Source: Alphaproteobacteria bacterium
GTDB taxonomy: Bacteria > Pseudomonadota > Alphaproteobacteria > CAAHEQ01 > UBA3637
Direction: 5' to 3'
NCBI GenBank assembly: GCA_017466695.1
Contig: JAFTTR010000002.1
Location: forward strand, 166,832 to 230,831
Length of the DNA: 64,000 bases
Part shown: positions 17,688 through 63,668 of the stretch, piece after piece
Layout: every line of letters begins with the position of its first letter
Position numbering within the stretch: position 1 is the first letter of the stretch
The notes under the pieces: generated by a model
What the model was told of the DNA's origin: nothing
The model's database searches: none
Seen by the model: only the letters and a program-made list of their open reading frames with translations
Translations under genes and position numbers: made by a program

Positions 17688-20354
17688 ATGACAAAATGGG
17701 TTTATACTTTTGGTGATGGCGTTGCAGAAGGCGATGCTTCAATGAAAAACTTGTTGGGTGGTAAAGGTGCTAACTTGGCTGAAATGAGCCGTGTTGGTGT
17801 TCCTGTTCCTCCAGGTTTTACAATCACAACAGAAGTTTGTACATATTATTACGCAAACAATCATTCTTATCCAACAGAATTAAAAGATCAAGTTTTAGCA
17901 GCACTTGCTGGCATTGAATCAAAAATGGGCAGCAAATTTGGTGATCCTAAAAACCCACTTTTATTCTCCGTTCGTTCAGGTGCTCGTGTTTCTATGCCTG
18001 GTATGATGGATACAGTTTTAAACCTTGGTTTAAATGATGAAACAGTTGTTGGTTTAGCTGAACGTTCAGGCAATGCAAAATTTGCTTATGACAGCTATCG
18101 CCGTTTCATTCAAATGTACGCTGACGTTGTTATGGGTGTTCACAGCTCAAAATTTGAAGCTGTTTTAGACCGTGTTCGTGAAGAAAACGGCTATCAATTT
18201 GACAACCAAATGACAGTTGAACAATTAAAAGAAGTTATTAAAGAATACAAAGAAATCTGTGTCAATGATGGTCACCCTCTTCCACAAGATCCATTTGAAC
18301 AACTTTGGGGTGGTATCGGCGCTGTGTTCTCTTCTTGGATGGTTGACCGTGCTATCTACTACCGTAAACTGAACAACATCCCAGGTGATTGGGGTACAGC
18401 TGTTAACGTTCAAACAATGGTTTTCGGTAACTATGGTGATACATCAGCTACAGGTGTTTGCTTCTCACGTGACCCAGCAACTGGTGAAAACTATTTCTAT
18501 GGTGAATATCTTAAAAATGCTCAAGGTGAAGACGTTGTTGCTGGTATTCGTACACCACAACCAATGACAAAACTTGTTAAAGAACGTTCTGGCACTGATT
18601 TACCATGTATGGAAGAAGAATTCCCTGTTGTTTACAAAGAATTATCTGACATTCGTGCAAAATTAGAAGCTCACTACAAAGATATGCAAGATATGGAATT
18701 TACAATCCAAGATGGTAAACTTTGGATGCTTCAAACACGTAATGGTAAAAGAACAGGTACAGCTGCTCTTCGTATCGCTGTTGAAATGGTTAACGAAGGC
18801 TTAATTGACAAGAAAACAGCTGTTATGCGTGTTGAAGCTGCTCAATTAGACCAACTTTTGCACCCAATGTTTGATAAATCAGAAAAACGCACTGTTTTAA
18901 CAAGTGGTTTACCTGCATCTCCTGGTGCTGCTGTTGGTGAAGCTGTTTTCTCAGCTGAAGATGCTGAAAAAGCTGCTGCAGAAGGTCGCAAAGTTATTTT
19001 AGTTCGTATTGAAACATCTCCTGAAGATATTGCAGGTATGCACGTTTCTCAAGGTATTTTAACAGCTCGTGGTGGTATGACAAGTCACGCTGCTGTGGTT
19101 GCTCGTGGTATGGGTAAACCTTGTGTTTCTGGTGTTTCAGCTCTTCGCATTGATTATGATGCAAAAACTCTCACTGTTGGTAACACTGTTATTAAAGAAG
19201 GTGAAATGCTTTCAATTGACGGTACAACAGGTGAAGTTATGGCTGGTGCATTGAAACTCGTTCTCCCAGAAATGACTGGTAACTTTGGTGAATTTATGTC
19301 TTGGGTTGATGAAATCCGTACACTTGGCGTTCGTACAAATGCTGAAACACCATTAGATGCTAAAACAGCTCGTGATTTTGGTGCAGAAGGTATTGGTCTT
19401 TGCCGTACAGAACACATGTTCTTTGACCCAGCTCGTATTAACCACATGCGTCAAATGATCTTGTCTGACACAGTTGATGCAAGAAGAGCAGCTCTTGCAA
19501 AACTCTTGCCTTACCAACGTCAAGACTTCACAGATCTTTTCACAATTATGGAAGGTCTTCCAGTAACAATTCGTTTCTTAGACCCACCATTGCATGAGTT
19601 CTTACCAAACAAAAAAGAAGAACAAGCTGAAATTGCTCGTGAATTAGGTGTCAGCGTTGAAGAAATCGCAGCACGTACAGCTAAATTACACGAAGCTAAC
19701 CCAATGCTTGGTCACCGTGGTTGCCGTTTAGGTGTTACATACCCTGAAATCAACGAAATGCAAGCACGTGCTGTTTTCGAAGCTGCAGTTGAAGTTATGA
19801 ACAAAACAGGTCGCACAATCGTTCCTGAAATCATGATTCCTCTTGTCGGTACGAAAAAAGAATTAGATCTTGCTAAAGCAGTTGTTGTTGCTGTTGCTGA
19901 TGCAGTTATGGCTGAAAAAGGCGTTAAATTTGAATACCATGTTGGTACAATGATTGAATTGCCTCGTGCAGCTATCACAGCTGACAAAATTGCAGAATCT
20001 GCAGAATTCTTCAGCTTTGGTACAAACGACTTAACTCAAACAACATTGGGTATGAGCCGTGATGACGCTGGTTCATTCTTACCAGAATACGTACAAAAAG
20101 GCATCTACGCTCGTGATCCATTTGCATCACTTGACCAAGAAGGTGTTGGCGCTTTGGTTGACATTGCTGTTACAAAAGGTAAAGCAACTCGTCCAAACAT
20201 CAAACTTGGTATCTGTGGTGAACATGGTGGTGATCCAGAAACAATTGATTTCTGTCACAGAGTTGGCTTGACATATGTGTCTTGCTCACCATACCGTGTG
20301 CCAATCGCACGTTTGGCAGCTGCTCAAGCAGCCGTTCGTAACGAAAAGAAATAA
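17688..20354 (+). CDS. ppdK: Pyruvate, phosphate dikinase
   Basis: 888 aa. '[10 protein letters not shown]' ATP-grasp N-terminus, a His-domain '[15 protein letters not shown]', and a PEP-utilising C-terminus 'CGEHGGDP'. Confidence 0.95.
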
Positions 20355-20372
20355 GATTAACTTAATTCTTTT

Positions 20373-20405
20373 AATCCCCTGCCCTTTGGTGGGGGATTTT
20401 TTTAT
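20373..20405. terminator. Rho-independent terminator of ppdK
   Basis: aatcccc..ggggatt hairpin plus a T7 run. Confidence 0.6.
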
Positions 20406-21561
20406 ATTCATAAAAATCTCATATCAAAAATTTCAACACTTAAAAAATTAAAAATTATTTTATAGTTCTCATTTTTTTAATAAAGAGAAAAATATGCCTA
20501 TTTGCACAAAAACGATTGATCCATTTTATCGATAAAAAAATCTTTTTAGAAGAAACCAAAAAAAATAAAATTTAAATAAAATACAACTGATATTTTATTT
20601 ATTTTTTTGGTTATTTATTAAATAATAATAAAGAGAAATTTATGTAATGCTTAAAGTTATTTTTTTAGACCTAAACATATATTTTAAACAACAAAAAAAT
20701 TAAAATCGGTCAAATAAAAATAAAGATTTTTACAAGACTTTTGAGTATCAAAAAATACACTTTTTTATATCAAAACAAATTTTAAAATATTTTTCACCTT
20801 CTTTCATTTACCTTTTATTGATAAATGAATCAAGTCTTATCCAGAATGATTTGAATCTTTTTTTATAAAATTAAAAATTCAACAACTTAAAATCCACAAT
20901 TAATGCATAACATTAAGATTAAAATAATTATATATCATAAGCTAAAATCTATTTTTATTAAAATACATCACTCCTCCTTTCCTCTTAAAAAAAATAATAA
21001 TTTATTTTTCTAAAAAAACTTAAAATTCCTAATTGATAAAATTAACACATCTAAATTTATTGATAAACATCAAAATTACAATAACAATAAAATGTAATTT
21101 GACATATTTAAAGTTTTACATAAATATTTTTCTGCGCTTAAAATAATTAAAAGTCCCCTTCTCCCCCTTGCCCAATATTCAATTTTATTTTTAAAGGAAA
21201 AATTTCTTTTCAAAAAACTCTATCTTCTTATCAAAATAAATACATACACCTCAAATTTAAGCTCCACGTTTCAATTTAGCTTATTTACCCCTTTTCAAAA
21301 TTTTCAAAAAACAAAACTTAACTCTATGATTTTAAAAATATTTTTATAATTTTTATCGCAGGCAAAAGCCGTTTTACACAAAAATTAAATCAATCATTCA
21401 ACCAACTTATCAAAATCATCCCTTATATTTTGCCTTTAAAACTTTTATAAAAGGCCTTCAAGTGTAAAAAATTTTTTTATTGAAAAAATAACCATTTAGA
21501 TATAAAATGATTTTAATTATTTTGTATCAACGAATCCAATATGAATATCAAAGGAGAAAAA

Positions 21562-21969
21562 ATGATCGAAATTTCAATGGCTGTTGTTGTTCATGATGAT
21601 AAAATACTTATTGCTCAACGTAAAAAGGGTAAATTTCCAGAACTTATGTGGGAATTTCCAGGAGGTAAACTTGAACAAGGAGAAACATTAGAAGAATGTG
21701 TCGCTCGAGAATTTAAAGAAGAACTAGAAAAAGAAATCACCGTGAAAAATCTTTTCATGTCTCATGTTCACACCTATGAAAACAAGGGCGATTTTCGGTT
21801 GAATGCCTTTTGGGCAACCTGCCAAACTGATGCCCTCCCTGCTCTTCATGAACACAATGCTGCAAAATGGGTCTCTCTAACAGAGTTAAACAATTTTGAC
21901 TTTTGCCCAGCTGACATTCCTTTTATAACAGCGTTGAAAGAATTAAAAAGTTTGCCAGTTTTAGATTAA
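21562..21969 (+). CDS. NUDIX hydrolase (MutT-like)
   Basis: Nudix box 'GGKLEQGETLEECVAREFKEELEKEI'. The start was set at the ATG with the AAGGAG RBS. Confidence 0.75.
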   Translation: MIEISMAVVVHDDKILIAQRKKGKFPELMWEFPGGKLEQGETLEECVAREFKEELEKEITVKNLFMSHVHTYENKGDFRLNAFWATCQTDALPALHEHNAAKWVSLTELNNFDFCPADIPFITALKELKSLPVLD

Positions 21970-21997
21970 GAGTCAAAAACTTTTAAATTCATTTTTT

Positions 21998-22225
21998 ATG
22001 AAGAAGATTCCCTTGTTTTTTTTGCAAGGGTATCTTTTTTTTGTTGGTCCAAGGCTTCATTTAGGAAATCCATTTTTTCATCCCCATCTGACGGAGAAAC
22101 ATTTGGCTGACACTCCCCTTGACCAGAACAATCAAGACTCCACTCTATTTCCTCTTCTTTTGGGAATTCTTTTTTTAGCGTCAATCGTTTTAATTTACTT
22201 TCTGCGATTTGCAAAAAAGGCTTAA
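21998..22225 (+). CDS. Hypothetical small membrane protein (uncertain; an overlapping antisense ORF at 21996-22274 is an alternative)
   Basis: 75-aa ORF with a C-terminal TM helix, co-directional with the flanking genes. No homology recognised. The 92-aa charged ORF on the opposite strand is equally possible. Confidence 0.2.
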   Translation: MKKIPLFFLQGYLFFVGPRLHLGNPFFHPHLTEKHLADTPLDQNNQDSTLFPLLLGILFLASIVLIYFLRFAKKA

Positions 22226-22445
22226 ATGTTAATAAAATATATCTCTTTTTGGTTTCTTTTTTTTCACTTGTCATGTAACACTCCTTTTATTCAAATAGCA
22301 TTTATTTGAATAAAAACAATCTATACTTTTTTCCTTTTTTCAAAAAAAATCGTATTAATTTCTTTTTTTTCCTAAAAAAATATTTACGTGTTTGAAAATT
22401 CCTGTTATAATAAATTATAGGGATTGTTTTTTAAGGGGGTCATAA

Positions 22446-23951
22446 ATGGTATTTTGGGCAACCATGCTTAGCTTTATCGTCAGCGTACTTCTAGCACTTA
22501 TTTATCCTAGAAGCGATAAGCATATGGTTGAAAATGTGCCCATTGCTGAATCATATATTGCCTCTTTTGTAACACAGCACCAATCAGCTATTGACTATGC
22601 TAATTCTATTTCTCTTGCTATGCCCTATCTTTTAACCTCCTTGGGAAATGATGTAGCAGCTGCTGCAGATGATGGAACAAACGCTGCAACTGAGCGGCTT
22701 ATCCATGTGTTTAAAGATGATTTTAATGACAACTTTATCCCAACTATAGCCCCCACTGAAGGGCATATGGCCCCTTCCTTTAATTTACTCCCTGGCCCTG
22801 ACGGAGGATACACCTCAGCCCTTGTGTGTCTAAATAGAGTTGACGACAAAGAAAATAGCATTGATGAAGAAGGCAATAGTATTTGGGGAACAACTTCAAC
22901 TTATGGAGATATTGTTTCTTGCAGAACAAATGACACCACTTTTAAATATGTTTTAACCTATGGAACACTCTATCCTAACGCAGAAGAGTCTCGTGTTATT
23001 TTTAGGAACAAACGTCTTTTATGGGAAAAAGCCCTTGTCAAACGCACAAAAAACACCTATGACTGTGGTTTTATTGAGGAAGGTGGTATGACATCTGATG
23101 GAAAAGCTCACGTGATGAGTTTGAACGCTCAAGGGCGCAAAATCCCTGAAAGAATATTTGAATTTTATAAACCATATGTTCAAGAATACAACCTCACGAA
23201 CGGTATTCTTTTTTGCATTACCCCTATTAACACTCCCTATATCACAAGTGGGTTACTCTACCACTTTGACGCCATTGTTAATTCAATTAATTCCGGGACA
23301 ACCATTGATCATAGAGAAGAAATGTCTGGTTGGACAAATATTGTTACAACCTTGGACGTTGGAATAGAAGGTGAAGCCAACGCTATGTGGCATCCACAAG
23401 AAGCTATTCCTTTAGGTCTTAGAGGAAACCATCAGATGTCCCTTGATGTTTGGGATGCAATAAATGATACCAGCTCTTTGGGGACTTCTTTCACCCTTTC
23501 TTTTGTGATTAATTTTATTAGACCTGATGAAGGCACTATTACAGAAAAAATGCCTGTGTTTGGATCAACACAAAACACTGTTTATCCTAGAATGCTTAGC
23601 TCTTATGAAAATGGCAAATTTCAAGTCACATTGATGAAAGATGAATGGTTTAAATTAGGGGAAATTGAAACAAGAATCCCTCAAACAGCGACCACATCCA
23701 TCACCTATGTTGTTACCCCTTCAACTCATCAACTGTACATCAATGGCCAACTCATCAAAACAGAACGTTATCAAAGAGATGATTGGTTTACCTCTTTAAA
23801 AACGTCCAGTTTAGTTATCGGCGCTGACGCATCTTTTGGACCAACAAGATTACAAGCTGACATTTATAATATCAAAGTGTATAACAGAGCATTGACTGAA
23901 AAAGAAATACAACACAACCTTAAAACAGATAGGAAACGCTTTAACTTTTAA
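22446..23951 (+). CDS. Membrane-anchored surface protein with C-terminal LamG/concanavalin-A-like lectin domain
   Basis: N-terminal hydrophobic anchor 'MVFWATMLSFIVSVLLALIYP'. C-terminal '...SSLVIGADASFGPTRLQADIYNIKVYNRALTEKEIQHN' is typical of LamG_3/pentraxin-like folds. Strong AAGGGGG RBS, with a TAA immediately upstream in frame. Confidence 0.6.
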   Translation: MVFWATMLSFIVSVLLALIYPRSDKHMVENVPIAESYIASFVTQHQSAIDYANSISLAMPYLLTSLGNDVAAAADDGTNAATERLIHVFKDDFNDNFIPTIAPTEGHMAPSFNLLPGPDGGYTSALVCLNRVDDKENSIDEEGNSIWGTTSTYGDIVSCRTNDTTFKYVLTYGTLYPNAEESRVIFRNKRLLWEKALVKRTKNTYDCGFIEEGGMTSDGKAHVMSLNAQGRKIPERIFEFYKPYVQEYNLTNGILFCITPINTPYITSGLLYHFDAIVNSINSGTTIDHREEMSGWTNIVTTLDVGIEGEANAMWHPQEAIPLGLRGNHQMSLDVWDAINDTSSLGTSFTLSFVINFIRPDEGTITEKMPVFGSTQNTVYPRMLSSYENGKFQVTLMKDEWFKLGEIETRIPQTATTSITYVVTPSTHQLYINGQLIKTERYQRDDWFTSLKTSSLVIGADASFGPTRLQADIYNIKVYNRALTEKEIQHNLKTDRKRFNF

Positions 23952-23966
23952 AGCAAGGAGGCAAAA

Positions 23967-25709
23967 ATGAAGAGACAAACAAAAAAACAAGAACAAGGCG
24001 CCATTATCATCGAGATTATTGCCGTCATTGCGCTTTTAGGTGTTATGGGCCCTTTGCTTTTTAGACAAATTTCTAATCGTAATGAAGAAGTTGAAAATAT
24101 TAATATTGCAACAGAAGTTCGCATTATCAAAGAAGCTTTATCTTCTTATATCCTTTCTCACCATGCTGAAATTGCAGCGACTGCTCGTCAAAATAGAGAA
24201 ACACTCAGTACAGATGTTGGTGTTGGTCAACTTAGCGACTTTTTACCAACAGGCTATGAAGATATCGCCACCGGTTATAGGATGAGCGTCTTGCTTGATG
24301 AAAACAAAGCTGGAGGTGATCGGTTGCAAGGATATATCGTCCCAGATTTAGAAGCACTTGGATTGCCTGAAATGAACATTCGCCGTGTTGCTCGAATTTC
24401 AAACCTTATTGGAGCTGATGGTGGAATTTATATTAATGGCGATCAATTCATCCATGGAACAGGTGGTGCTTGGCAATTAGAATCTGCAGAACTCGCAGCT
24501 AACTTACCAGCAGATGAACATACATTTGTCGCTACAACAGGTATGGATACATTTGTCCCAACTGTTAATTTCGAAGATTTTGATCCAAGTAATATTAATC
24601 TTCCTAATGATTTAGCCCTTGGCAGATTACATGCATGGAACTATTTTTCAGTTGGACAAATCCAAAATGGTATTGGCAGTTGTTTTACACTCAATCACCA
24701 TAATCCTGCAACTGGAACAACAGGGAATCCTGACGTGATTTTTGAAGCTGGGCAAAACGATTGTTCTCCTCTTTTTTGGGTTGGTAGCAGTACGGATGGG
24801 ACCATTTCAGGGGATGCCGTTGTTAAACAAAAATTACATTTAAGAAGTTCTCCAAATAATACTTCTTCCATTATTTTATCCAGTGGACATGATAAAGTGG
24901 ATTCAACACCTGAAGAAAGAAACCAAGCAAGAAGCATTAAAGTTTTTGATGTTACTGGAAAGGAAATTATTTCAATTGATGCAACAGGCTCCATTTCTGT
25001 CGTTGGGAGTACTGTTCTTAATACAGCGGACAGACTGACTGGAACTGGTGATAATGAAAAATTAACCATCAAAAATGGACGCATTGATTCTAACGTCCTT
25101 GCTCCTGCTACAAAAGAGGATATCAGATTATTCGAAAATCCAACAATTGGAGATATCACCTACTCTCTCGATCCAAGATACACTTCTGTTATGAATGACA
25201 TTAGACTTGAATCACGGGGTGGCGCAAGATTAAGCGATTTACTCCCAACCTATTCGTTAAAAGAAATCAAAACAATCTCGTCACCAGGCACAGCTGGGAC
25301 AACTGAAACAATTTATGTTCCCGCTTGCCCAAAATTACACTATCCTGCCATTATGGTCACACCAGTGAGTTGGCATCAAAACAGTGAACAAGAAATTATC
25401 GACACTGTTAAAGGAAACCTTACAGCTCAAGCAGATGGCACATTAAAGCAGTCAACAATTGTTAATCCTAACGCTGCTCATCCAGTGCAACCTCGTGTTA
25501 CAATTACATATAGTGACGCTGTCGATAATGATTATGTTCAAGAACTTCCAAGATCGGGAGGCACTTGGCACGTTTCATTAACTTATGTCAGAAATGAGCA
25601 ATTGGTTAACACCCCCATTCCAACCCAAATCAAGGCTATTGTACACACTTATTGCGTCTTTGATACTGCAAGCCGAGTAAACGCTGATAGGCCTGATTCA
25701 GAGAAATAA
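23967..25709 (+). CDS. Large (580 aa) type-IV-pilin-like protein with class III (prepilin) signal peptide
   Basis: N-terminus 'MKRQTKKQEQG|AIIIEIIAVIALLGVMGPLLF' has a charged leader, Gly at -1, Glu at +5 and a hydrophobic helix, matching the prepilin cleavage/methylation motif. AGGAGG RBS lies 8 nt upstream, 15 nt after the preceding gene. Confidence 0.6.
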   Translation: MKRQTKKQEQGAIIIEIIAVIALLGVMGPLLFRQISNRNEEVENINIATEVRIIKEALSSYILSHHAEIAATARQNRETLSTDVGVGQLSDFLPTGYEDIATGYRMSVLLDENKAGGDRLQGYIVPDLEALGLPEMNIRRVARISNLIGADGGIYINGDQFIHGTGGAWQLESAELAANLPADEHTFVATTGMDTFVPTVNFEDFDPSNINLPNDLALGRLHAWNYFSVGQIQNGIGSCFTLNHHNPATGTTGNPDVIFEAGQNDCSPLFWVGSSTDGTISGDAVVKQKLHLRSSPNNTSSIILSSGHDKVDSTPEERNQARSIKVFDVTGKEIISIDATGSISVVGSTVLNTADRLTGTGDNEKLTIKNGRIDSNVLAPATKEDIRLFENPTIGDITYSLDPRYTSVMNDIRLESRGGARLSDLLPTYSLKEIKTISSPGTAGTTETIYVPACPKLHYPAIMVTPVSWHQNSEQEIIDTVKGNLTAQADGTLKQSTIVNPNAAHPVQPRVTITYSDAVDNDYVQELPRSGGTWHVSLTYVRNEQLVNTPIPTQIKAIVHTYCVFDTASRVNADRPDSEK

Positions 25710-25735
25710 GGTTTGTGGAATAGCTTAATAACTTA

Positions 25736-25782
25736 CAACCCCATTGGTTCCTCCTTCCAATGGGGTTTGTTTTCATTTTCTT
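25736..25782. terminator. Rho-independent terminator of the pilin-like operon
   Basis: aaccccattgg..ccaatggggtt 11-bp stem followed by a T-rich tract. Confidence 0.6.
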
Positions 25783-25813
25783 CAATAATATACTTCTCGT
25801 AGCCCCTCTTCAT

Positions 25814-26305
25814 TTTTAACGAGATTTAATCCAATTAGATAAAGCAAAATACCTTCTTGTCAAGGTACATAGACGTACATAAAAGAAGGCGTTTTGCTTA
25901 AGCTTGGAGATATAAAACTTTTAACGAGATATATCAAGAAAAAATCCCACTTAGGCGAAAAAAGTAGGCTTTCGTTTTAACGAGATTTAATCTAGTTAGA
26001 TAATGAAAAACGCCCACTCGCCGTGTGCATAGACGCACATAAGACAGCGTTTTGAATATACCACGCCCTAAAGATTTTAACGAGATATATATCAAGAAAA
26101 AATCCCACTTAGGCGAAAAAAGTAGGCTTTCGTTTTAACGAGATTTAATCTGGTTAGATAATGAAAAACGCCCACTCGCCGTGTGCATAGACGCACATAA
26201 GACAGCGTTTTGAATATACCACGCTCTAAAGCTTTTAACGAGATATATCAAGAAAAAATCCCACTCGCCGTGTACATAGACGTACATAAGAGTGGGATTT
26301 TTGAA
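25814..26305. repeat. Mosaic tandem repeat array (~57-bp A units alternating with ~110-bp B units), each B unit carrying an A-run/hairpin/T-run
   Basis: The 12-mer 'ttttaacgagat' recurs at ~25814, 25917, 25974, 26085, 26144 and 26232. Units 25917-26084 and 26085-26231 are near-identical. The core 'cccactcgccgtgt[g/a]catagacg[c/t]acataag' recurs. The final unit is an A/B fusion that forms a perfect aaaaaatcccactc...gagtgggattttt hairpin. Confidence 0.8.
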
Positions 26306-26332
26306 TTGAGATACTCGCTAAAAGCTTTAGGA

Positions 26333-26947
26333 TTAGCGTGAGTAGAACTCGATGACCAAATTTGGTTCCATTTGAGTTGCATATGGAATATCAGCTAATT
26401 GAGGAACACGGATGAATTTACCTGTACCTGCTTTTGCATCAACTTCCATATATTCTGGAACTTCACGATCTGTAGCTGCTAATGCATCAATGACAAGAGC
26501 CATTTCTTTTGCTTTAGAGCGAATTGAAATTTCATCACCTGGACGAACAAGGTATGAAGGGATGTTAACTTTTTTACCATTAACAAGAACGTGACCATGG
26601 TTAACAAACTGACGAGCAGCGAAAACAGATGGCACAAATTTCATACGATAAACAACTGAATCCAAGCGTGTTTCTAAAATACCAACGAGGTTTTCAGAGC
26701 TATCCCCTTTACGACGAATAGCTTCAGCGTAGTATTTACGTAATTGTTTTTCGGATACGTTCCCATACACACCTTTTAATTTTTGTTTAGCGTGTAATTG
26801 AACACCGTAGTCTGTCAATTTTTTACGGTTGGCACCGTGTTGACCAGGACCATAATTTCTTTTTTCAACTGGAGATTTTGCTTTACCCCATAAGTTAACG
26901 CCTAAACGGCGGTCAATTTTAAATTTAGAACTTAATCTTTTTGACAT
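26333..26947 (-). CDS. rpsD: 30S ribosomal protein S4
   Basis: '[22 protein letters not shown]...' is a canonical S4 N-terminus with an S4 RNA-binding domain. Confidence 0.95.
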
Positions 26948-27165: not shown

Positions 27166-28449
27166 TTATCTATTCCTACTTTGAGGTTGATAAGCTGCTA
27201 AAGGCTCTTCTTGCACATAAGTTCCAGCCTGTTGCAATGTGTTTTGAGCCACACCAAGCTGTCTTGCCAAATTTGGATTAGCCTCTCTCAACCCTGCAAG
27301 AACCATTGCTTTAATTCTTGGATCGCCTTTATCTAACTCTTTGATACTCTTTAACTTATCTTGAATAGGAACCTTAGGATTTGTTAAATAAACAAGCTTT
27401 GTAACAGAATATAACCTCCTATATTCAGAGGGATTTTCATTTAAAAGATTATTAAACCAGCGTTGTCTATCAGCAGCAGACATTTTACTTGTATCCAGCA
27501 CATAATAAATTGGATCCTCTTTCAAACTTCTAAACCTAACTTTTCTTTTAACTTCATCTGTTTGACTGATAAAATCAGTATATCTATTTTTTTTCATATC
27601 ATTTAAAAAATCTTCAACATAATCAGATTGTTTCTTAGATTTAGAGTCCATTTTATTATAATCTTTACGCGTTTGCTTGTGAACTTTCTCAATATTGTTA
27701 AATTCTCGATACAATTCTTCTGTTTGATTGTTTAAATTAACCCACTCTTTAGCCGTTTTATAAACATCATCCGTTTTAAATTTTGGATCAAGCTGTGGAA
27801 ACGCAGATGGCGTTTGTTGACAATATCCGATATTGTCTTCTAATGTTTTTGCATAGCTCGGATCTTGTTTTTGAATATCTTTTAAGATTTTTTCTCTCTC
27901 AGCTGCTGGCAAAGAGGCCAAATAAACAGCTGACATTAGCATCTTTTTACGACAAATAGCTTTGGATTTGTTGAGCTTGTCGAATTTTTCTTCAAACCTT
28001 TTGGTCTGTTCATAGGTTTCACCCACAACTGTGCGCTCTTTTCCATCCTCACCAATCACTTTAGAATCCCACTTTATAATACCTCTTTTCAACAAATCAA
28101 CAACCCTGTCTGTATTACTCCAAAAAGCTCTTGAACTTGATAAAAGTTGTTGTGCTTCAAGACGAAGCTGTTCCATTTTGATTCTTTGTTCAGAAACAAA
28201 AGCTGTCGCTGCATCTTGTTTTTCATCCAATCGAAACTCTTTGATAGCGATATTAATTTGTTCCTTAATCCCTGCTGAAATCTGGGGATCTGAAGAGAGT
28301 TGATCCAAGCCTCGTGCATCTTTGTATTGATGAATATAGGTCATAAAAACAAGCTTTTCAGCCGAACTCATTGAGGAAATATTTTTACCCACAAATGAAT
28401 TTAAACCCCGAACATAGCTTGGTTCTTTTTTACTTTGACTTGTAACCAT
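27166..28449 (-). CDS. Hypothetical coiled-coil protein (effector-like, no recognised domain)
   Basis: 427 aa, Lys/Glu/Gln-rich with predicted long helices. No signal peptide or TM. GGGGGAG RBS. Adjacent to the ankyrin genes. Confidence 0.55.
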   Translation of the reverse strand: MVTSQSKKEPSYVRGLNSFVGKNISSMSSAEKLVFMTYIHQYKDARGLDQLSSDPQISAGIKEQINIAIKEFRLDEKQDAATAFVSEQRIKMEQLRLEAQQLLSSSRAFWSNTDRVVDLLKRGIIKWDSKVIGEDGKERTVVGETYEQTKRFEEKFDKLNKSKAICRKKMLMSAVYLASLPAAEREKILKDIQKQDPSYAKTLEDNIGYCQQTPSAFPQLDPKFKTDDVYKTAKEWVNLNNQTEELYREFNNIEKVHKQTRKDYNKMDSKSKKQSDYVEDFLNDMKKNRYTDFISQTDEVKRKVRFRSLKEDPIYYVLDTSKMSAADRQRWFNNLLNENPSEYRRLYSVTKLVYLTNPKVPIQDKLKSIKELDKGDPRIKAMVLAGLREANPNLARQLGVAQNTLQQAGTYVQEEPLAAYQPQSRNR

Positions 28450-28721: not shown

Positions 28722-29978
28722 CTAACCATTTGTGCGTTCATTTAATGAACGCCCTAAATTTGGCAAGACTTGGTTTTGCGCAATATTTTGTGGCTTAATT
28801 TGATGCCTTCTTATCACATCAAGAATATATTCATTCTCTCGCATCATAACCCAATATAAAGCGCTTTTGCCATATTTATCTTTTATATTTATATCAGCTC
28901 CTGCTTGGAGTAACAAATCTAATATCTCATCATCATATCTGTCAACAGCAACTCTTGCAAGTGTTTGACCATCTTCAAAAGTAACATTCACATCAGCGCC
29001 TTTTTCAATCAAAAAACGAATCACTTCTTTTTTTTGATAAATAAATGCCCATTGCAAAGGCGTTTTATTCTCAAAACCAATCTCATTTATATCTGCACCT
29101 TTTTCAAGTAGTTTACCCGCCAATTCAATATCCCCACTTGAAGCAGCAATATTCAAAGGTGAAATCTCATTTTCATCTCTTAAATTCACATCAGCACCCT
29201 GTTCAATCAAAAACAGAGCCACCTCTTTATCCCCTTTTCGCATAAAACGAATTAAAGGCGTTTCTTTAAAAATATTTTGCGCATTCAGATTTGCCCCAGC
29301 TTCCACAAGCGTTTTAACAATATGATAGCAATTTTGAGCATGATAATATGTTTTTAAATCATTAGACAAATCAGGTGTATCTAAAGCAACAATAGAACCC
29401 CTATCATTACCACTTGCATAATGCAACGCTGTTTCTAATCGGCCATCTCTTCGATTAACATCTGCTCCCACCTCTAAAAGATTTTTAACCATATACAGTG
29501 AAGAAATCTTGGCTGCTTGCATTAAAATTGTCTGACCATCTTCACCCCCTTGCGCATTGATATCATGCCAATAATTAGCAAAAAGGCGATTACTTAAACT
29601 GCTCCAATCTCCTGTTCTTAAAGCACTCACACAACTTCTATATTGGTTTTGATATCTAAATGCAAATGTGTTTAACAAGTCTTCTGCTTGAAATTGGCGA
29701 TGTACTTGAGCCACTTTTTCAGCTGTTAAGCCTTGACCCCAATATTCCTCATTTATTTTCCCAGAACGCTGATACAAACTCGCCCCTTTTGAAACAAGCA
29801 ATTTTATAATCTCTTGATAGCCATGTTTTGCAGCCACCATAAGAGGGGTTAAATTTTCTTCATTATAAGAATGAAGGGGAACATTCTTTTTTAAAAGTTC
29901 TTCAACAGCTTTTATATCATTTGCTTTAATCGCTTCAAAAAGATTTGCTTCAATAGATGAAATTTGACTTGTTTGCAT
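28722..29978 (-). CDS. Ankyrin-repeat protein
   Basis: At least 8 ANK repeats ('NLTPLMVAAKHGYQEIIKLLVSKGASL', 'GQTILMQAAKISSLYMVKNLLEVGADVN', 'ETALHYASGND', 'ISPLNIAASSGDIELAGKLLEKGADIN', 'KTPLQWAFIYQKKEVIRFLIEKGADVN', ...). Confidence 0.85.
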   Translation of the reverse strand: MQTSQISSIEANLFEAIKANDIKAVEELLKKNVPLHSYNEENLTPLMVAAKHGYQEIIKLLVSKGASLYQRSGKINEEYWGQGLTAEKVAQVHRQFQAEDLLNTFAFRYQNQYRSCVSALRTGDWSSLSNRLFANYWHDINAQGGEDGQTILMQAAKISSLYMVKNLLEVGADVNRRDGRLETALHYASGNDRGSIVALDTPDLSNDLKTYYHAQNCYHIVKTLVEAGANLNAQNIFKETPLIRFMRKGDKEVALFLIEQGADVNLRDENEISPLNIAASSGDIELAGKLLEKGADINEIGFENKTPLQWAFIYQKKEVIRFLIEKGADVNVTFEDGQTLARVAVDRYDDEILDLLLQAGADINIKDKYGKSALYWVMMRENEYILDVIRRHQIKPQNIAQNQVLPNLGRSLNERTNG

Positions 29979-55649: not shown

Positions 55650-57773
55650 TTAATTTTTAGAGCCCCAAGGGCGATTTTTATTTTCATCTGATAAATCATT
55701 CACTCTTATTCCATTTTTATCTACAAATAAATATACTGTCCCCATTTGTGAAAGCATTTCTTTAGAATAGAAGTTTAAGCAATTTAAATTATTTGATTTT
55801 TTCAAAGAAAATGTTATTGAAGCTCCCTTACAATTTTGAACATCAAAAGATATCTTTTGACCTCTTATTTCAACTTGGGTAGGCTTATATTTTTGACTAT
55901 TCATATAATTTTCTGGTAAAATTCCTTCTTGCAATAACATCATATCAGATACAAACCTATGGCGATAAGTTTCATTTAATTTCAAAGTGTTATTTTCGTC
56001 TCTTATAGCAATTAATCGACCTTCTTTTGCAACAATAACGTCTGGTTTTTGAACTGTTAAGAAAGAAAATGGCGCAACACAAATTAAAAGAATCCCTACA
56101 AATCGTGCCTTCTTTTTTAAAGTACATAAAATCATAAATCCAAAAGCAAAACAAATAAGACCCCATGAATCAAACAAGGGAACTGGTATCATATAAAATG
56201 GAAGGGTCGTCAAATTTTCCCCCACTGAATGAATATGCTTTAGTATCCAATCAATTAAAACAAGTCCACCCCTTTCAAGTCCAAAAGGCATCAAGAAAAC
56301 TGATAAAATCAAAAGAGGCATAATAAAAATTGAAAAGAAAAAGCTTAAAAATAAATTCCCTAAAATACCATATACAGCTATTTTATGAAAATGATATCCC
56401 ACAAAAGGAATTGTTGTTAGCGTCACAACAAAATTTAAAATCAACAAACCCAAGAAAAAAGCTAAAAATTTATGCGTCATTATCAATGGTTTTAATTTTT
56501 CTGAAAACTCTTTAACCAACACACATAAAGACAACACGGCAATAAATGAAAGCTGAAAACTCACACTCAACAATAGGACAGGCTTATAACACAACAATAA
56601 AAATGCTGTCACAAAAATAACTCGAATAGAAATTGTACTTCGATAAAAGAAAAAGCACATAAACAAAAACAAAACCATTACAAACGAACGAACTGCCGGT
56701 GGTTCTGCTCCAGAAAGAAGTACATAACAAAACGAAACACTCAAACCTGCAAGCGCACTGATTTGCCGAATAAAAATAGGAGAAATCCTTGTTTTTAAGA
56801 AAAGAAGTGTCAATAAAAAGCGAATAAATTTATATACAAGAAAAGTAATAAGCCCAATATGAAAGCCTGAAACAGATAAAATATGTGTCAATCCTAAAAT
56901 GCGATATAAGAATTCAATTGGTTTTGAAATAAGACTTTGATCCCCTAATATCAAAGCATTAAGCACCCCTTTTGCATCCTCATTTAAAAAAGATATCTTT
57001 TCTTGGATAGATTTTTTTATTCTATATAAAATATCTTGTTTTTCTGCTTGCGTCTTTTTTATATAAAGTTCAGAAAAAGAGGCAATCCCACCTATATTAT
57101 CAAAAAACAATGTTCTTTGCTGGTTATACCCATTTAAAACCTGTGGGGCCGACGGTGTTGACAACATATAAGCAACCCCTGAAACAATATCCCCCTTTTT
57201 AATCTCAGTAGATGATGGTTTTTTGTATAAACATGTATCTGTTGAAATTCTTTTTTTATTATCTTTGTCCCCTCTTTTATTCGAAATTTCATCTAATTCT
57301 TTTGGATTTTTACAAAGGGGTAATGGATCTTCAAGGGCATAATCTTTTATCCCTTTAAACGGAACCCATATCTTAATTTTAGCAGGCGTTTCTTTTTGAG
57401 AGAGCCCTTGAACAATGGTTTTTTTTAAAACCACTTCAGCTGTTGTAATTTTATTTTTAACAAATTCCACTTCTCCTTGTATGGAAATATTTGTCATATT
57501 CTTGGGCACAAAGATCGTATTTGTAAAAAAAGTATGAAGCGTTGAAACAAAAAAGCCCAATATTCCCATGAATAAAAACAAAGAAATAAATACTTTCTTT
57601 TGTTTTATATAAGCAAATACAAACAACAAAAATGAAAGAAAAAATAAAAGCCCTGTCAACAGCAAACCCGGCTCTTTTCCCATTGAAAAATAGGTTAGAA
57701 TTCCCAACATAAATGCCACAATAAACAGGACACCTCGTTGCTCCTCCTCATTAAAAAAGAACCGTATACCCAT
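55650..57773 (-). CDS. comEC: ComEC/Rec2 competence channel protein (apparently lacking the C-terminal metallo-beta-lactamase domain)
   Basis: DUF4131-like N-domain and a competence domain with many TM helices ('ILGLTHILSVSGFHIGLI'). The last ~150 aa lack HxHxDH. Confidence 0.8.
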   Translation of the reverse strand: MGIRFFFNEEEQRGVLFIVAFMLGILTYFSMGKEPGLLLTGLLFFLSFLLFVFAYIKQKKVFISLFLFMGILGFFVSTLHTFFTNTIFVPKNMTNISIQGEVEFVKNKITTAEVVLKKTIVQGLSQKETPAKIKIWVPFKGIKDYALEDPLPLCKNPKELDEISNKRGDKDNKKRISTDTCLYKKPSSTEIKKGDIVSGVAYMLSTPSAPQVLNGYNQQRTLFFDNIGGIASFSELYIKKTQAEKQDILYRIKKSIQEKISFLNEDAKGVLNALILGDQSLISKPIEFLYRILGLTHILSVSGFHIGLITFLVYKFIRFLLTLLFLKTRISPIFIRQISALAGLSVSFCYVLLSGAEPPAVRSFVMVLFLFMCFFFYRSTISIRVIFVTAFLLLCYKPVLLLSVSFQLSFIAVLSLCVLVKEFSEKLKPLIMTHKFLAFFLGLLILNFVVTLTTIPFVGYHFHKIAVYGILGNLFLSFFFSIFIMPLLILSVFLMPFGLERGGLVLIDWILKHIHSVGENLTTLPFYMIPVPLFDSWGLICFAFGFMILCTLKKKARFVGILLICVAPFSFLTVQKPDVIVAKEGRLIAIRDENNTLKLNETYRHRFVSDMMLLQEGILPENYMNSQKYKPTQVEIRGQKISFDVQNCKGASITFSLKKSNNLNCLNFYSKEMLSQMGTVYLFVDKNGIRVNDLSDENKNRPWGSKN

Positions 57774-62573: not shown

Positions 62574-63668
<1,095 letters not shown>

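What the first reader, a model, noticed from the sequence alone, without database searches (positions are those of the whole stretch)
22446..25709. Orphan two-gene operon: LamG-lectin-domain membrane protein plus giant (580 aa) prepilin-signal protein, with no pilus machinery nearby
The second gene begins with a textbook class III signal: a charged leader, Gly at -1, 'AIIIE' with Glu at +5, and a 20-residue hydrophobic helix. That means processing by a prepilin peptidase and possible pilus or pseudopilus incorporation. The body is 560 aa, far larger than major or minor pilins. The upstream, translationally coupled gene (15-nt gap, strong RBSs on both) encodes an N-terminally anchored protein with a C-terminal LamG/ConA-like lectin fold. 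No PilB/PilC/PilD/GspE-type genes flank the pair. The neighbours are a NUDIX gene and rpsD. This architecture could be a pilus-tip adhesin module, an uncharacterised surface display system, or part of a DNA-uptake pseudopilus, since comEC and dprA lie in the same window. It is not a described operon type that I recognise.
Basis: partly seen in the sequence, partly recalled or inferred. Interest (0 to 1): 0.75.

Follow-up and report, generated by a model that had tools for sequence, protein, structure and literature searches.

The report
Type IVb pilus tip adhesin pair
Two adjacent genes in an uncultured gut alphaproteobacterium most likely encode the sticky tip of a type IVb pilus (a large PilV/TcpB-like minor pilin plus a lectin-carrying partner); this is a new variant of a known kind of adhesin, encoded away from the pilus-building genes.

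Summary
Two co-oriented ORFs (22446-23951, 501 aa; 23967-25709, 580 aa) are separated by 15 nt, both have strong RBSs, and there is no pilus machinery in the 64 kb.

Gene 2 has a class III signal (leader-G|AIIIE plus a hydrophobic helix) that is kept in every full-length homolog. "Orphan" and "not a described type" are overstated:
- Gene 2's first ~190 residues are homologous to the constant region of plasmid PilV thin-pilus tip adhesins.
- Its model resembles the type IVb pilins and minor pilins TcpB and CofB.
- Known proteins of this kind are already 390-512 aa.

The pair is a conserved cassette in uncultured gut and rumen Alphaproteobacteria. These bacteria carry an R64/PAPI-1-type type IVb machinery operon, usually unlinked to the cassette but adjacent in two loci and on the same contig in a third.

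Gene 1 belongs to a small clade-restricted family. It has a leaderless hydrophobic helix and lacks Glu5. LamG is a lineage-specific addition, and its fold resembles the lectin-bearing pilin PilC.

Most likely the pair forms the pilus tip and initiator adhesin module. Not shown: the machinery or a peptidase in this genome, the major pilin, or the role of a universal 31-residue motif. It is a new variant of a known kind, of moderate interest.

The parts
22383..22411 (+). Promoter-like site for the two-gene operon (TTTACG, 17-nt spacer, TATAAT, with a TG extension)
   Evidence: It is the best + strand match in the 21900-26400 scan, at 10 of 12 positions. The overall number of sites in the region is not above the shuffle expectation. 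Sequence read. It is a consensus match only.
22433..22439 (+). Shine-Dalgarno sequence of gene 1 (AAGGGGG), 6 nt before the ATG
   Evidence: Sequence read directly.
22446..23951 (+). Gene 1, the 'partner' (501 aa). It has a leaderless N-terminal hydrophobic helix, a conserved N-module and a C-terminal LamG lectin domain.
   Evidence: ORF. 14 homolog clusters. N-terminus 'MvFWATvLSFI...YPRxDK' conserved. AlphaFold model with mean pLDDT 81.3 and pTM 0.77.
22446..23240 (+). Gene 1 N-module (aa 1-265). Model: helix 2-19, a break at Pro21-Arg-x-Asp, helix 25-55, then an alpha/beta domain. Four invariant Cys (C128, C159, C207, C257).
   Evidence: Model secondary structure. Invariant columns. This is the only part shared with the short (223-290 aa) partners in other genomes. 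Only 47 representatives among 1.84 billion proteins, nearly all aligned from residue 1. No Pfam family.
23253..23948 (+). Gene 1 LamG/ConA-like lectin domain plus a terminal helix (aa ~270-501)
23955..23961 (+). Shine-Dalgarno sequence of gene 2 (AAGGAGG) inside the 15-nt intergenic gap
   Evidence: Sequence read directly.
23967..25709 (+). Gene 2 (580 aa), a large modular type IVb-class minor pilin (PilV/TcpB/CofB-like)
   Evidence: ORF. 110 homolog clusters, all unnamed and without Pfam domains. 279 relatives in GTDB species representatives. AlphaFold model with mean pLDDT 74.6.
23967..24062 (+). Class III (prepilin-type) signal. Leader aa 1-11 (MKRQTKKQEQG), predicted cleavage G11|A12, Glu16 at +5, hydrophobic alpha1-N to about aa 32.
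   Evidence: Motif kept in all 109 full-length clusters. E16 invariant and G11 at least 90% conserved. Weak matches to the GspG N-terminus (E = 0.003) and to Geobacter PilA-N (E = 0.0095).
23967..24536 (+). Pilin domain (aa 1-190): a ~60-residue alpha1 helix plus an alpha/beta head. Homologous to the PilV N-terminal constant region.
24537..25160 (+). Variable beta-rich middle region (aa ~191-398), with invariant C239 and C266
   Evidence: 23% mean pairwise identity across the family. Its length varies so that family members span 441-1433 aa. Lower pLDDT in the model.
25161..25253 (+). Family signature segment (aa 399-429, YSLDPRYTSVMNDIRLESRGGARLSDLLPTY)
   Evidence: Present in every family member and absent from plasmid PilV. 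74% mean pairwise identity, the highest of any region. pLDDT below 50 for aa 407-426. Function unknown.
25254..25661 (+). Variable C-terminal beta domain (aa ~430-565), with invariant C454 and C563. Possibly H-type-lectin-like or TcpB C-domain-like.

Best explanation
The two genes form a chromosomal 'tip module' of a type IVb (R64/PAPI-1-like) pilus in an uncultured gut alphaproteobacterium.

**Gene 2.** It encodes a modular minor pilin.
- Its short basic leader would be removed by a prepilin peptidase at Gly11|Ala12.
- Its ~60-residue alpha1 helix and PilV-like head would seat it in the filament.
- As with TcpB, CofB and PilV, it would prime assembly and sit at the distal end.
- There it would present its variable beta-rich and C-terminal domains as the adhesin.

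**Gene 1.** It is translationally coupled to gene 2 and encodes a protein anchored by a leaderless, Glu5-less alpha1-like helix.
- In this lineage it carries a LamG lectin.
- It most likely associates with the gene 2 product as a co-adhesin, or as the very first (capping) subunit, adding glycan binding.

The assembly machinery (PilL/TcpQ, secretin PilN, PilO, PilP-like, ATPase PilQ, platform PilR) is encoded elsewhere in the genome.

**Shown:** the signal motif and its conservation, homology of the N-domain to PilV, fold resemblance, cassette conservation, and co-occurrence with the machinery in relatives.

**Inferred:** cleavage, tip location, the gene 1-gene 2 complex, glycan binding, and the presence of machinery and peptidase in this particular genome.
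For: **Class III motif**
- The motif is kept in all 109 full-length clusters, and Glu+5 is invariant.

**Homology and fold of gene 2**
- The AlphaFold model has a 60-residue helix plus an alpha/beta head.

**Cassette and machinery**
- The partner + pilin cassette is conserved in roughly 65 of 78 species-representative genomes, with gaps of -50 to +68 nt.
- The cassette lies beside secretin-PilO-PilP-ATPase-platform genes in L007 and L059.
- It lies about 17 kb from that operon on one contig in L047/L089.
- The same operon is in L009. R64 PilL matches its TcpQ-domain gene.
- The ATPase is 63-88% identical across the best 120 of 3541 hits, all uncultured Alphaproteobacteria where named.

**Variability pattern**
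- The pattern is adhesin-like: constant N-domain (33-49% identity) and variable distal parts (21-23%). Family lengths run from 441 to 1433 aa.

**Extracytoplasmic location**
- Both proteins have four invariant Cys positions, as expected of disulfide-bonded extracytoplasmic proteins.

**Gene 1**
- LamG is confirmed.
- The leaderless helix with a Pro at position 21 mimics a mature pilin alpha1.

**Precedents**
- Tip subunits need no Glu5, and GspK has a hydrophobic residue at position 5 (PMC5207764).
- CofB is a trimeric initiator with an H-type lectin domain (PMC6048534).
- The PilV C-terminus binds LPS, and pilV2 is adjacent to pilM2 (PMC5297154).
Against: - No machinery or prepilin peptidase was found in this window, or in the ~10 kb of contig to its right. 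The ATPase of this MAG could not be identified.
- No prepilin peptidase, major pilin or PilT homolog appears anywhere in the 1.51 Mb of window plus related loci. What the pilus shaft is made of is therefore unknown.
- Neither Pfam nor NCBIfam recognises gene 2 or 54 relatives as Shufflon_N, N_methyl or any pilin. R64 PilV itself is not significantly matched.
- About a dozen loci lack an adjacent partner.
Confidence: 0.62

Rival explanations
1. Gene 2 is the tip minor pilin as above. Gene 1 is not part of the filament. It is an inner-membrane accessory or chaperone (functionally like R64 PilM or the PilO class) that stays anchored by its N-terminal helix. It would dock or prime the bulky pilin at the platform. 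Its LamG domain would bind a periplasmic glycan, or the pilin itself.
For: - The partner has no Gly(-1) and no Glu5, and no sequence similarity to pilins.
- R64 PilM is likewise a small protein that starts with an essentially leaderless hydrophobic helix.
- pilM2 is adjacent to pilV2 in PAPI-1 (PMC5297154).
- In pRMAN01 a 160-aa protein with the same kind of N-terminus sits directly upstream of pilV.
- The clade's machinery operon lacks a PilM gene.
- Short partners of 223-290 aa have no adhesin-like domain.
Against: - The partner's C-terminal region is variable and lineage-specific: LamG is detectable in about a quarter of the loci, and partner lengths run from 223 to 616 aa. That is more typical of surface-exposed adhesins than of housekeeping assembly factors.
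- There is no detectable homology to PilM or PF07419.
- The fold resembles the lectin-bearing minor pilin PilC.
Confidence: 0.25
2. The pair is a surface-display or secretion module that is independent of a pilus fibre. The class III signal would serve only for peptidase-dependent membrane insertion or release, or for short pseudopilus-type export of a large adhesin or lectin complex, as in a T2SS-like piston.
For: - No major pilin was found near any cassette or machinery operon.
- The cassette is usually unlinked to the machinery.
- There is a weak GspG-like N-terminal match.
- Type IVb systems can also secrete proteins (PMC5207764; abstracts).
Against: - The invariant Glu5 and the long alpha1 helix argue for incorporation into a filament.
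- The homology is to PilV tip adhesins and the fold to TcpB/CofB.
- The machinery has the R64 thin-pilus gene set and order, including a secretin.
Confidence: 0.08
3. This is the first reader's alternative: the pair belongs to a DNA-uptake (competence) pseudopilus that works with the ComEC and DprA genes encoded in the same window.
For: - ComEC (55650-57773) and DprA (36063-37199) are in the window.
- Type IV filaments mediate DNA uptake in many bacteria (review PMC6370729, listed).
Against: - ComEC and DprA lie about 30 and 10 kb away, in unrelated housekeeping operons, and ComEC is on the opposite strand.
- Cassettes in other genomes (L003, L004, L005, L007) have no com genes nearby.
- The homology is to conjugative or adhesive type IVb PilV, not to ComGC, ComP or ComZ-type pilins.
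- The lectin-type domains point to glycan ligands.
Confidence: 0.04

Closest known systems
PilV, the minor pilin and tip adhesin of IncI/PAPI-1-type conjugative type IVb 'thin' pili (Pfam Shufflon_N, PF04917)
   Same: - It has a class III signal with Glu+5, and is a large protein (474-512 aa).
- It has a constant N-terminal pilin domain that is detectably homologous to gene 2 aa ~20-190, including the IGA[DE]GG...G-x-x-GAW motif.
- Its variable C-terminal part determines ligand specificity (PMC5297154).
- It is served by the same class of machinery: PilL, PilN, PilO, PilP, PilQ and PilR.
   Different: - Gene 2 is below the Pfam threshold for Shufflon_N.
- Its +1 residue is Ala or Ser rather than Trp.
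- There is no shufflon or recombinase, and it is not inside a pil operon or a conjugative element.
- It carries a universal 31-residue signature motif that is absent from PilV.
- Its C-terminal regions are unrelated.
- It is chromosomal and clade-wide in Alphaproteobacteria.
TcpB (Vibrio cholerae TCP) and CofB (ETEC CFA/III), the type IVb minor pilins that initiate assembly and sit at the tip
   Same: - The architecture is a pilin domain followed by beta-rich domains and a C-terminal lectin-like domain.
- They have Glu5.
- Each is the single large minor pilin of its system (PMC5207764, PMC6048534).
   Different: - There is no detectable sequence similarity, and the fold scores are modest or non-significant.
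- TcpB and CofB are encoded inside the pilus operon, next to the major pilin.
- They have no leaderless partner gene.
- Trimerisation and initiator function are untested here.
PilC of Streptococcus sanguinis, a modular minor pilin with a concanavalin A-like lectin module
   Same: - Gene 1 combines an N-terminal helix-anchored alpha/beta module with a LamG/ConA-like lectin.
- This fits the concept of a functional module grafted onto a pilin carrier (PMC8179133).
   Different: - Gene 1 has no class III leader, no Gly(-1) and no Glu5.
- It has no IPR012902/N_methyl signature.
- It comes from a diderm type IVb context rather than a monoderm one.
- Whether its N-module really has a pilin fold is not established.
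PilM of R64-type thin pili (PF07419), and the unnamed 160-aa protein upstream of pilV in pRMAN01
   Same: - These are small proteins that begin directly with a hydrophobic helix (R64 PilM: MGWLVMAVGL...; pRMAN01: MSFAWVPMALMIFF...).
- They are encoded next to pilV in pRMAN01 and PAPI-1.
   Different: - There is no sequence or profile similarity to the partner.
- The partner is larger, has four invariant Cys, and here carries LamG.
- PilM's function is itself poorly defined.
GspK-type tip pseudopilins of type II secretion
   Same: They are bulky tip subunits with a hydrophobic residue instead of Glu at position 5, and are restricted to the filament tip (PMC5207764). This is analogous to the Glu5-less partner.
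   Different: GspK has a normal class III leader and belongs to a GspHIJK set. No homology was tested or seen.

Membership tests
Type IV pilin / pseudopilin superfamily (class III signal) - gene 2 | Short, positively charged leader ending in Gly at -1 | tested here: met
   The leader is MKRQTKKQEQG|A. Gly11 is at least 90% conserved across 55 diverse members.
Type IV pilin / pseudopilin superfamily (class III signal) - gene 2 | Glu at +5, followed by ~20 hydrophobic residues (alpha1-N) | tested here: met
   Glu16 (+5) is invariant in A1 and A4. A hydrophobic stretch follows in all 109 full-length clusters.
Type IV pilin / pseudopilin superfamily (class III signal) - gene 2 | Match to curated prepilin N-terminal models (Pfam N_methyl PF07963, TIGR02532) | tested here: not met
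   There is no hit at E <= 1 for gene 2 or for 54 relatives. The only related hit is the GspG N-terminus at E = 0.003, below its cut-off. A bona fide PilV also fails N_methyl, so the models do not cover this pilin class.
Type IV pilin / pseudopilin superfamily (class III signal) - gene 2 | Pilin fold: a ~53-residue alpha1 helix packed on an antiparallel beta-sheet head | tested here: met
   [not shown]
Type IV pilin / pseudopilin superfamily (class III signal) - gene 2 | Cleavage by a prepilin peptidase encoded in the same genome | not testable with these tools
   Only 64 kb plus ~10 kb of the genome could be read. No Peptidase_A24 is there, nor in 1.51 Mb of window plus related loci.
PilV / Shufflon_N (PF04917) thin-pilus tip adhesins - gene 2 | Pfam Shufflon_N match above the gathering score | tested here: not met
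   There is no hit at E <= 1 in gene 2 or in 54 relatives.
PilV / Shufflon_N (PF04917) thin-pilus tip adhesins - gene 2 | Homology of the N-terminal constant region to a bona fide PilV | tested here: met
   [not shown]
PilV / Shufflon_N (PF04917) thin-pilus tip adhesins - gene 2 | C-terminal segment switching by a shufflon (rci recombinase plus inverted sfx repeats) | tested here: not met
   There is no recombinase gene within +/-10 kb. Gene 2 is one continuous ORF. Downstream there are only direct 158-bp tandem repeats and two short inverted pairs.
PilV / Shufflon_N (PF04917) thin-pilus tip adhesins - gene 2 | Encoded within a type IVb pil operon of a conjugative element | tested here: not met
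   The window neighbours are housekeeping genes. Only L007 and L059 have the machinery adjacent, and even there in a chromosomal context.
TcpB/CofB-type type IVb initiator minor pilins - gene 2 | Three-part architecture: pilin domain, beta-repeat region, C-terminal lectin-like domain | tested here: inconclusive
   [not shown]
TcpB/CofB-type type IVb initiator minor pilins - gene 2 | Trimeric tip complex that primes pilus assembly | not testable with these tools
   No multimer prediction or experiment was available.
Modular type IV pilins (pilin module plus grafted functional module) - gene 1 | N-terminal class III signal (IPR012902) | tested here: not met
   Gene 1 starts MVFWATMLSFIV... with no leader, no Gly(-1) and no Glu5. 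This is conserved in all homologs, which align from residue 1.
Modular type IV pilins (pilin module plus grafted functional module) - gene 1 | Pilin-fold module followed by a non-pilin functional module (here a ConA-like lectin, as in PilC) | tested here: inconclusive
   [not shown]
R64-type PilM (PF07419) - gene 1 | Sequence or profile match to PilM | tested here: not met
   There is no Pfam hit. The partner profile against R64 PilM shows no significant match.
R64/PAPI-1-type type IVb pilus system - the clade's machinery | Gene set and order PilL/TcpQ - PilN secretin - PilO (PAP_PilO) - PilP - PilQ ATPase - PilR platform | tested here: met
   This holds for relatives, not for this genome. L007, L009, L059 and L089 show this order with Pfam TcpQ, Secretin, PAP_PilO, T2SSE and T2SSF. 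It matches R64 and pRMAN01, and R64 PilL matches at E ~1e-7.
Competence (Com) pseudopilus | comG-like operon (ATPase, platform, several small pilins) or linkage to comEC/dprA | tested here: not met
   There is no such operon in the window. ComEC and DprA sit in separate operons and are not linked to the cassette in other genomes.

The most novel reading that the evidence does not exclude
The partner (gene 1) represents a previously unrecognised class of filament subunit: a 'ready-made' tip pilin.
- It is translated without a leader and without Glu5, so it needs no prepilin peptidase.
- It can only occupy the very first position of the fibre.
- It would cap a type IVb pilus, carrying interchangeable C-terminal modules (LamG here).
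- It would dock onto the large PilV-like pilin through the ultra-conserved 31-residue segment that AlphaFold leaves unstructured.

Together the two proteins would make a portable, rapidly diversifying two-protein adhesin cartridge for a chromosomal type IVb pilus. That pilus is nearly universal in a large clade of uncultured gut Alphaproteobacteria, and its major pilin is still unidentified.
Probability: 0.2. Interest if true: 0.65.

Novelty: new variant of a known kind. Interest (0 to 1): 0.42.

Why it matters
- **Annotation.** The work gives a function to two families that every database currently labels 'hypothetical'. The gene 2 family has no Pfam domain and is unnamed in all 110 clusters. 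The partner's N-module has only 47 representatives among 1.84 billion proteins.
- **Biology of an uncultured group.** A large group of uncultured gut and rumen Alphaproteobacteria appears to rely on a chromosomal R64/PAPI-1-type type IVb pilus, a system known mostly from conjugative plasmids and enteric pathogens. Its ATPase is strongly conserved, while its tip proteins range from 441 to 1433 aa and are only 21-23% identical in their distal parts. That is the signature of a host-, prey- or partner-recognition device, and it offers candidates for explaining how these organisms attach in the gut.
- **Pilus biology.** Two new features are directly testable: the leaderless, Glu5-less partner, and the universal conserved segment.
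- **Annotation pipelines.** Type IVb-class pilins escape the standard prepilin HMMs, and tip-adhesin genes can be unlinked from the machinery.

Tried and rejected
**Homology and family searches that gave nothing**
- Pfam N_methyl, Shufflon_N and other pilin models on gene 2 and 54 relatives gave no hits. NCBIfam gave only a sub-threshold GspG N-terminus.
- A profile comparison of the gene 1 family with the gene 2 family showed no relation: probability 0.5%.
- The partner N-module profile showed nothing against R64 PilM, PilS, PilV, PilJ or the pRMAN01 160-aa protein. R64 PilV against the gene 2 profile was not significant.
- The PDB sequence-profile search for gene 1 returned only a sialidase CBM40 match for the LamG part. 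The pRMAN01 160-aa protein gave nothing against the PDB or Pfam.
- Foldseek against the PDB for gene 2 returned nothing at E <= 0.001. The afdb50 library was unavailable.
- PHROGs and PADLOC gave only generic LamG-region hits, so a phage tail-fibre or defence origin was rejected.

**Attempts to find this genome's machinery, peptidase or major pilin**
- I searched with a relative's ATPase. The window MAG's copy was not among the 120 rows listed, and the NCBI accessions did not match.
- A contig-length match (18,847 bp) turned out to be a coincidence between two different assemblies.
- The ~10 kb beyond the right end of the window has no pilus genes. The left-edge look-up failed because that ORF is not on record with that start.
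- A hunt for a prepilin peptidase (R64 PilU, GxGDxK motif), a major pilin (R64 PilS, class III regex) and PilT found nothing in 1.51 Mb of window plus loci.
- The small ORFs at the head of the machinery operon are Sec-signal proteins, not pilins.

**Artefacts and other checks**
- Apparent 'KKGG' leaders on some partner ORF calls are in-frame Shine-Dalgarno sequences, not class III leaders.
- No Rfam family and no tRNA was found in the window.

Full report
**1. What is in the sequence**

The finding's description is accurate. Two + strand ORFs occupy 22446-23951 (501 aa, gene 1) and 23967-25709 (580 aa, gene 2). They are separated by 15 nt that contain AAGGAGG. Gene 1 is preceded by AAGGGGG and by the best promoter-like site of the region, TTTACG-17-TATAAT at 22383-22411.

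Upstream lies a NUDIX gene, and downstream a convergent rpsD. I scanned essentially all ORFs of at least 120 aa in the 64 kb against Pfam, or read their precomputed hits. They are housekeeping genes: glycogen metabolism, PPDK, RecJ, DprA, TopA, DnaE, HisRS, ComEC, enolase and others. None is a T2SSE ATPase, a T2SSF platform, a secretin or an A24 peptidase. Gene 2 is the only credible class III ORF in the window. The source is an uncultured Alphaproteobacteria MAG (locus tag IJY92_00955), on a 376-kb contig.

**2. Gene 2 is a type IVb-class minor pilin of the PilV/TcpB/CofB kind**

*The signal.* The N-terminus is MKRQTKKQEQG|AIIIE followed by a hydrophobic helix. The same design (polar/basic leader, Gly, [A/S]-x-x-x-Glu, ~20 hydrophobic residues, then 'RNEE..N...A.E.R') is present in all 109 full-length clusters of the 110 found. 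Glu16 is invariant and Gly11 at least 90% conserved in a 55-member alignment that reaches 21% identity.

*Curated models miss it.* N_methyl and TIGR02532 give no hit. Only a sub-threshold GspG N-terminus (E = 0.003) and Geobacter PilA-N (E = 0.0095) appear. This is not evidence against a pilin, because a bona fide plasmid PilV also fails N_methyl.

*The link to PilV.*
- The best tblastn hit of gene 2 in 72,556 plasmids, though weak, is an annotated pilV.
- The family profile aligns to that PilV with hhalign probability 89.6%, E = 2e-6.
- An HMM of the N-terminal 200 residues from 55 diverse members scores 36.6 bits, E = 2e-7 with Z set to one million. It aligns residues ~20-190 with PilV 13-175, including a shared IGA[DE]GG...G-x-x-GAW motif.
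- That PilV is a Pfam Shufflon_N protein, E = 5e-20.
- R64 PilV itself is too distant to score.

*Size.* R64 PilV is 474 aa, pRMAN01 PilV 512 aa, and the solved CofB and TcpB chains are 496 and 390 residues. A 580-aa protein with a prepilin signal is therefore large, but not outside the known range for this class.

**3. The pair is a conserved cassette, and gene 1 is its less understood half**

*Distribution.* A scan of 185,579 species-representative genomes found 279 relatives of gene 2. The 78 loci kept are all from uncultured Alphaproteobacteria MAGs of ruminant, rabbit, human and mouse guts, apart from a few differently labelled bins.

*The partner.* In roughly 65 of these loci, an ORF directly upstream (gap -50 to +68 nt) begins with the same design as gene 1. 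A hydrophobic helix starts at residue 1-2 (M-x-[FYL]-[WL]...), followed by [P/V]-R-x-D and a helix carrying 'QHQAA'.

*What varies.* Partner length ranges from 223 to 616 aa. The short partners in L005 and L007 share only the N-module. LamG is detectable in about a quarter of the loci. LamG is therefore a lineage-specific addition to a conserved N-module.

*The N-module family.* It is tiny: 47 representatives among 1.84 billion proteins, nearly all aligned from residue 1. The leaderless start is thus a conserved property, not a mis-called start. A few apparent 'KKGG' leaders are in-frame Shine-Dalgarno sequences.

*No sequence relation.* I could detect none between the partner and gene 2, PilM or other R64 Pil proteins.

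**4. The machinery exists in the clade but is usually unlinked**

*Adjacent cases.* In L007 and L059 the cassette lies convergent to secretin - PAP_PilO - PilP-like - T2SSE - T2SSF genes. This is the gene order of R64 pilN-O-P-Q-R and of pRMAN01.

*The full operon.* In L009 and L089 it starts with a Sec-signal protein and a TcpQ-domain gene that R64 PilL matches at E ~1e-7. It contains no pilin and no peptidase.

*Same contig.* Contig JAZLAQ010000026.1 carries both this operon and, about 17 kb away past housekeeping genes, a gene 2 homolog. Cassette and machinery can therefore coexist unlinked in one genome.

*Conservation.* The ATPase is 63-88% identical over the best 120 of 3541 hits, all from uncultured Alphaproteobacteria where a name is given.

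*What I could not show.* I could not identify the ATPase of the window's own MAG. The closest relative (73% identity) has the same NUDIX/rpsD synteny and is equally silent on the question. No prepilin peptidase, PilS-type major pilin or PilT homolog occurs in the 1.51 Mb of window plus loci. The PAPI-1 type IVb cluster likewise has no peptidase listed among its ten genes (PMC5297154).

**5. Conservation pattern and an unexplained motif**

Mean pairwise identity across 55 members, by region:

| Region | Identity |
|---|---|
| Leader + alpha1-N | 49% |
| Rest of the pilin domain | 33% |
| Middle region | 23% |
| C-terminal domain | 21% |
| Segment aa 399-429 | 74% |

The segment at aa 399-429 (YSLDPRYTSVMNDIRLESRGGARLSDLLPTY) is present in every member from 441 to 1433 aa and absent from plasmid PilV. 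AlphaFold gives it pLDDT below 50.

A constant filament-embedded domain with hypervariable distal domains is what one expects of a tip adhesin. The conserved unstructured segment probably contacts something equally conserved: the partner's N-module, a copy of itself, or the machinery or shaft. This is inference.

**6. Most likely mechanism**

After leader removal at Gly11|Ala12, the gene 2 product would enter the filament through its alpha1 helix. Like TcpB and CofB, it would prime assembly and end up at the tip, exposing its variable domains (PMC5207764; PMC6048534).

The partner has a mature-pilin-like helix but neither leader nor Glu5. Published reasoning holds that the first subunit of a filament does not need Glu5, and that GspK-type tip subunits have a hydrophobic residue there. 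This makes a capping or co-adhesin role plausible, with LamG contributing glycan binding. I give the overall reading 0.62.

The main rival (0.25) is that the partner is an inner-membrane accessory factor, functionally like PilM. PilM has a similar leaderless helix and is encoded next to pilV in related systems. A fibre-independent display or secretion role (0.08) and the DNA-uptake idea (0.04) are less likely, for the reasons given under rival explanations.

**7. Comparison and novelty**

*What it works like.* It works like the PilV/TcpB/CofB class of type IVb tip minor pilins, combined with the 'modular pilin' principle.

*Membership.* Gene 2 meets the motif and fold criteria of type IV pilins, and its N-domain is homologous to a bona fide PilV. 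It fails the curated Pfam thresholds, has no shufflon and is not in a pil operon. It is best described as a new, distant family within the PilV-like type IVb minor pilins. Gene 1 fails the defining class III signal of pilins and shows no match to PilM, so it cannot be filed under either.

*What is new.*
- The conserved two-gene cassette.
- The leaderless partner.
- The universal 31-residue segment.
- The chromosomal, clade-wide distribution, unlinked from the machinery.

I rate this a new variant of a known kind, with interest 0.42. It is useful for annotating and understanding uncultured gut Alphaproteobacteria, and it holds a testable curiosity for pilus biologists.

Noticed in passing
window 25814-26303: A tandem array of about 3.5 copies of a 158-bp unit fills the 620-bp convergent gap between the gene 2 stop and the rpsD stop (25926-26083 and 26084-26241 are 97% identical). 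Each unit carries an AAAACGC...GCGTTTT hairpin. The closest relative (L010) has only ~150 bp in this gap. There is no Rfam match. It could be a duplicated bidirectional terminator or a REP-like element.
   Followed up: partly
window 25161-25253 (gene 2 aa 399-429), and all family members in L003-L088: The 31-residue segment DPxYTSVMNDI[RK]LxSRGGARLS[DE]ILP is the most conserved part of an otherwise hypervariable family (74% against 21-49% identity). AlphaFold nevertheless predicts it with pLDDT below 50. Its function is unknown.
   Followed up: partly
L009 4068-13488; L089 4069-13411; L007 11876-18147; L059 14565-21187: A chromosomal R64/PAPI-1-type type IVb pilus operon (PilL/TcpQ-like, secretin, PAP_PilO, PilP-like, ATPase, platform) is highly conserved in uncultured gut Alphaproteobacteria: the ATPase is 63-88% identical over the best 120 hits. 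It contains no pilin and no prepilin peptidase, and the major pilin of the system was not found anywhere.
   Followed up: partly
L004, L028, L032, L034, L038-L040, L042, L046-L048 (gene 2 homologs of 680-760 aa): A subgroup of the family carries a Cys-rich insert (17-25 Cys per protein). It gives weak matches to DUF7107, Dickkopf_N and EB-module models, which are eukaryote-like cysteine-rich modules, located in the variable middle region.
   Followed up: no
L058 962-2548 and 2658-2888: A second, tandem copy of a gene 2 homolog starts right after the first and runs off the contig end. This suggests local duplication of the adhesin gene in some genomes.
   Followed up: no
L003 6449-8122 (also L020, L024): A 557-aa SLT-domain lytic transglycosylase gene lies directly upstream of the partner gene in one subclade. 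This recalls the R64 pilT (lytic transglycosylase) next to pilU and pilV.
   Followed up: no
window 28722-29978 (-) and 27166-28449 (-): An ankyrin-repeat protein (418 aa) and a 427-aa protein with no Pfam domain lie just beyond rpsD. Ankyrin repeats are eukaryote-like and could hint at interaction with a eukaryotic host or protist.
   Followed up: no
window 20354-21541: A 1.2-kb gap between the PPDK and NUDIX genes has no ORF of 120 aa or more. The 2-kb composition bin covering it has unusually low G+C (0.279, against ~0.35 for the window). There is no Rfam family and no tRNA.
   Followed up: no
[not shown]
   Followed up: partly
L030 (contig CAYPVK010000006.1): A GTDB representative labelled 'uncultured Lactobacillales bacterium' carries a typical cassette of this alphaproteobacterial family. 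The bin is probably mislabelled or contaminated.
   Followed up: no
window 62574-63668 (+): An N6_N4_Mtase + RAMA domain DNA methyltransferase (the CcrM-like architecture typical of Alphaproteobacteria) lies next to an OmpA-family gene.
   Followed up: no
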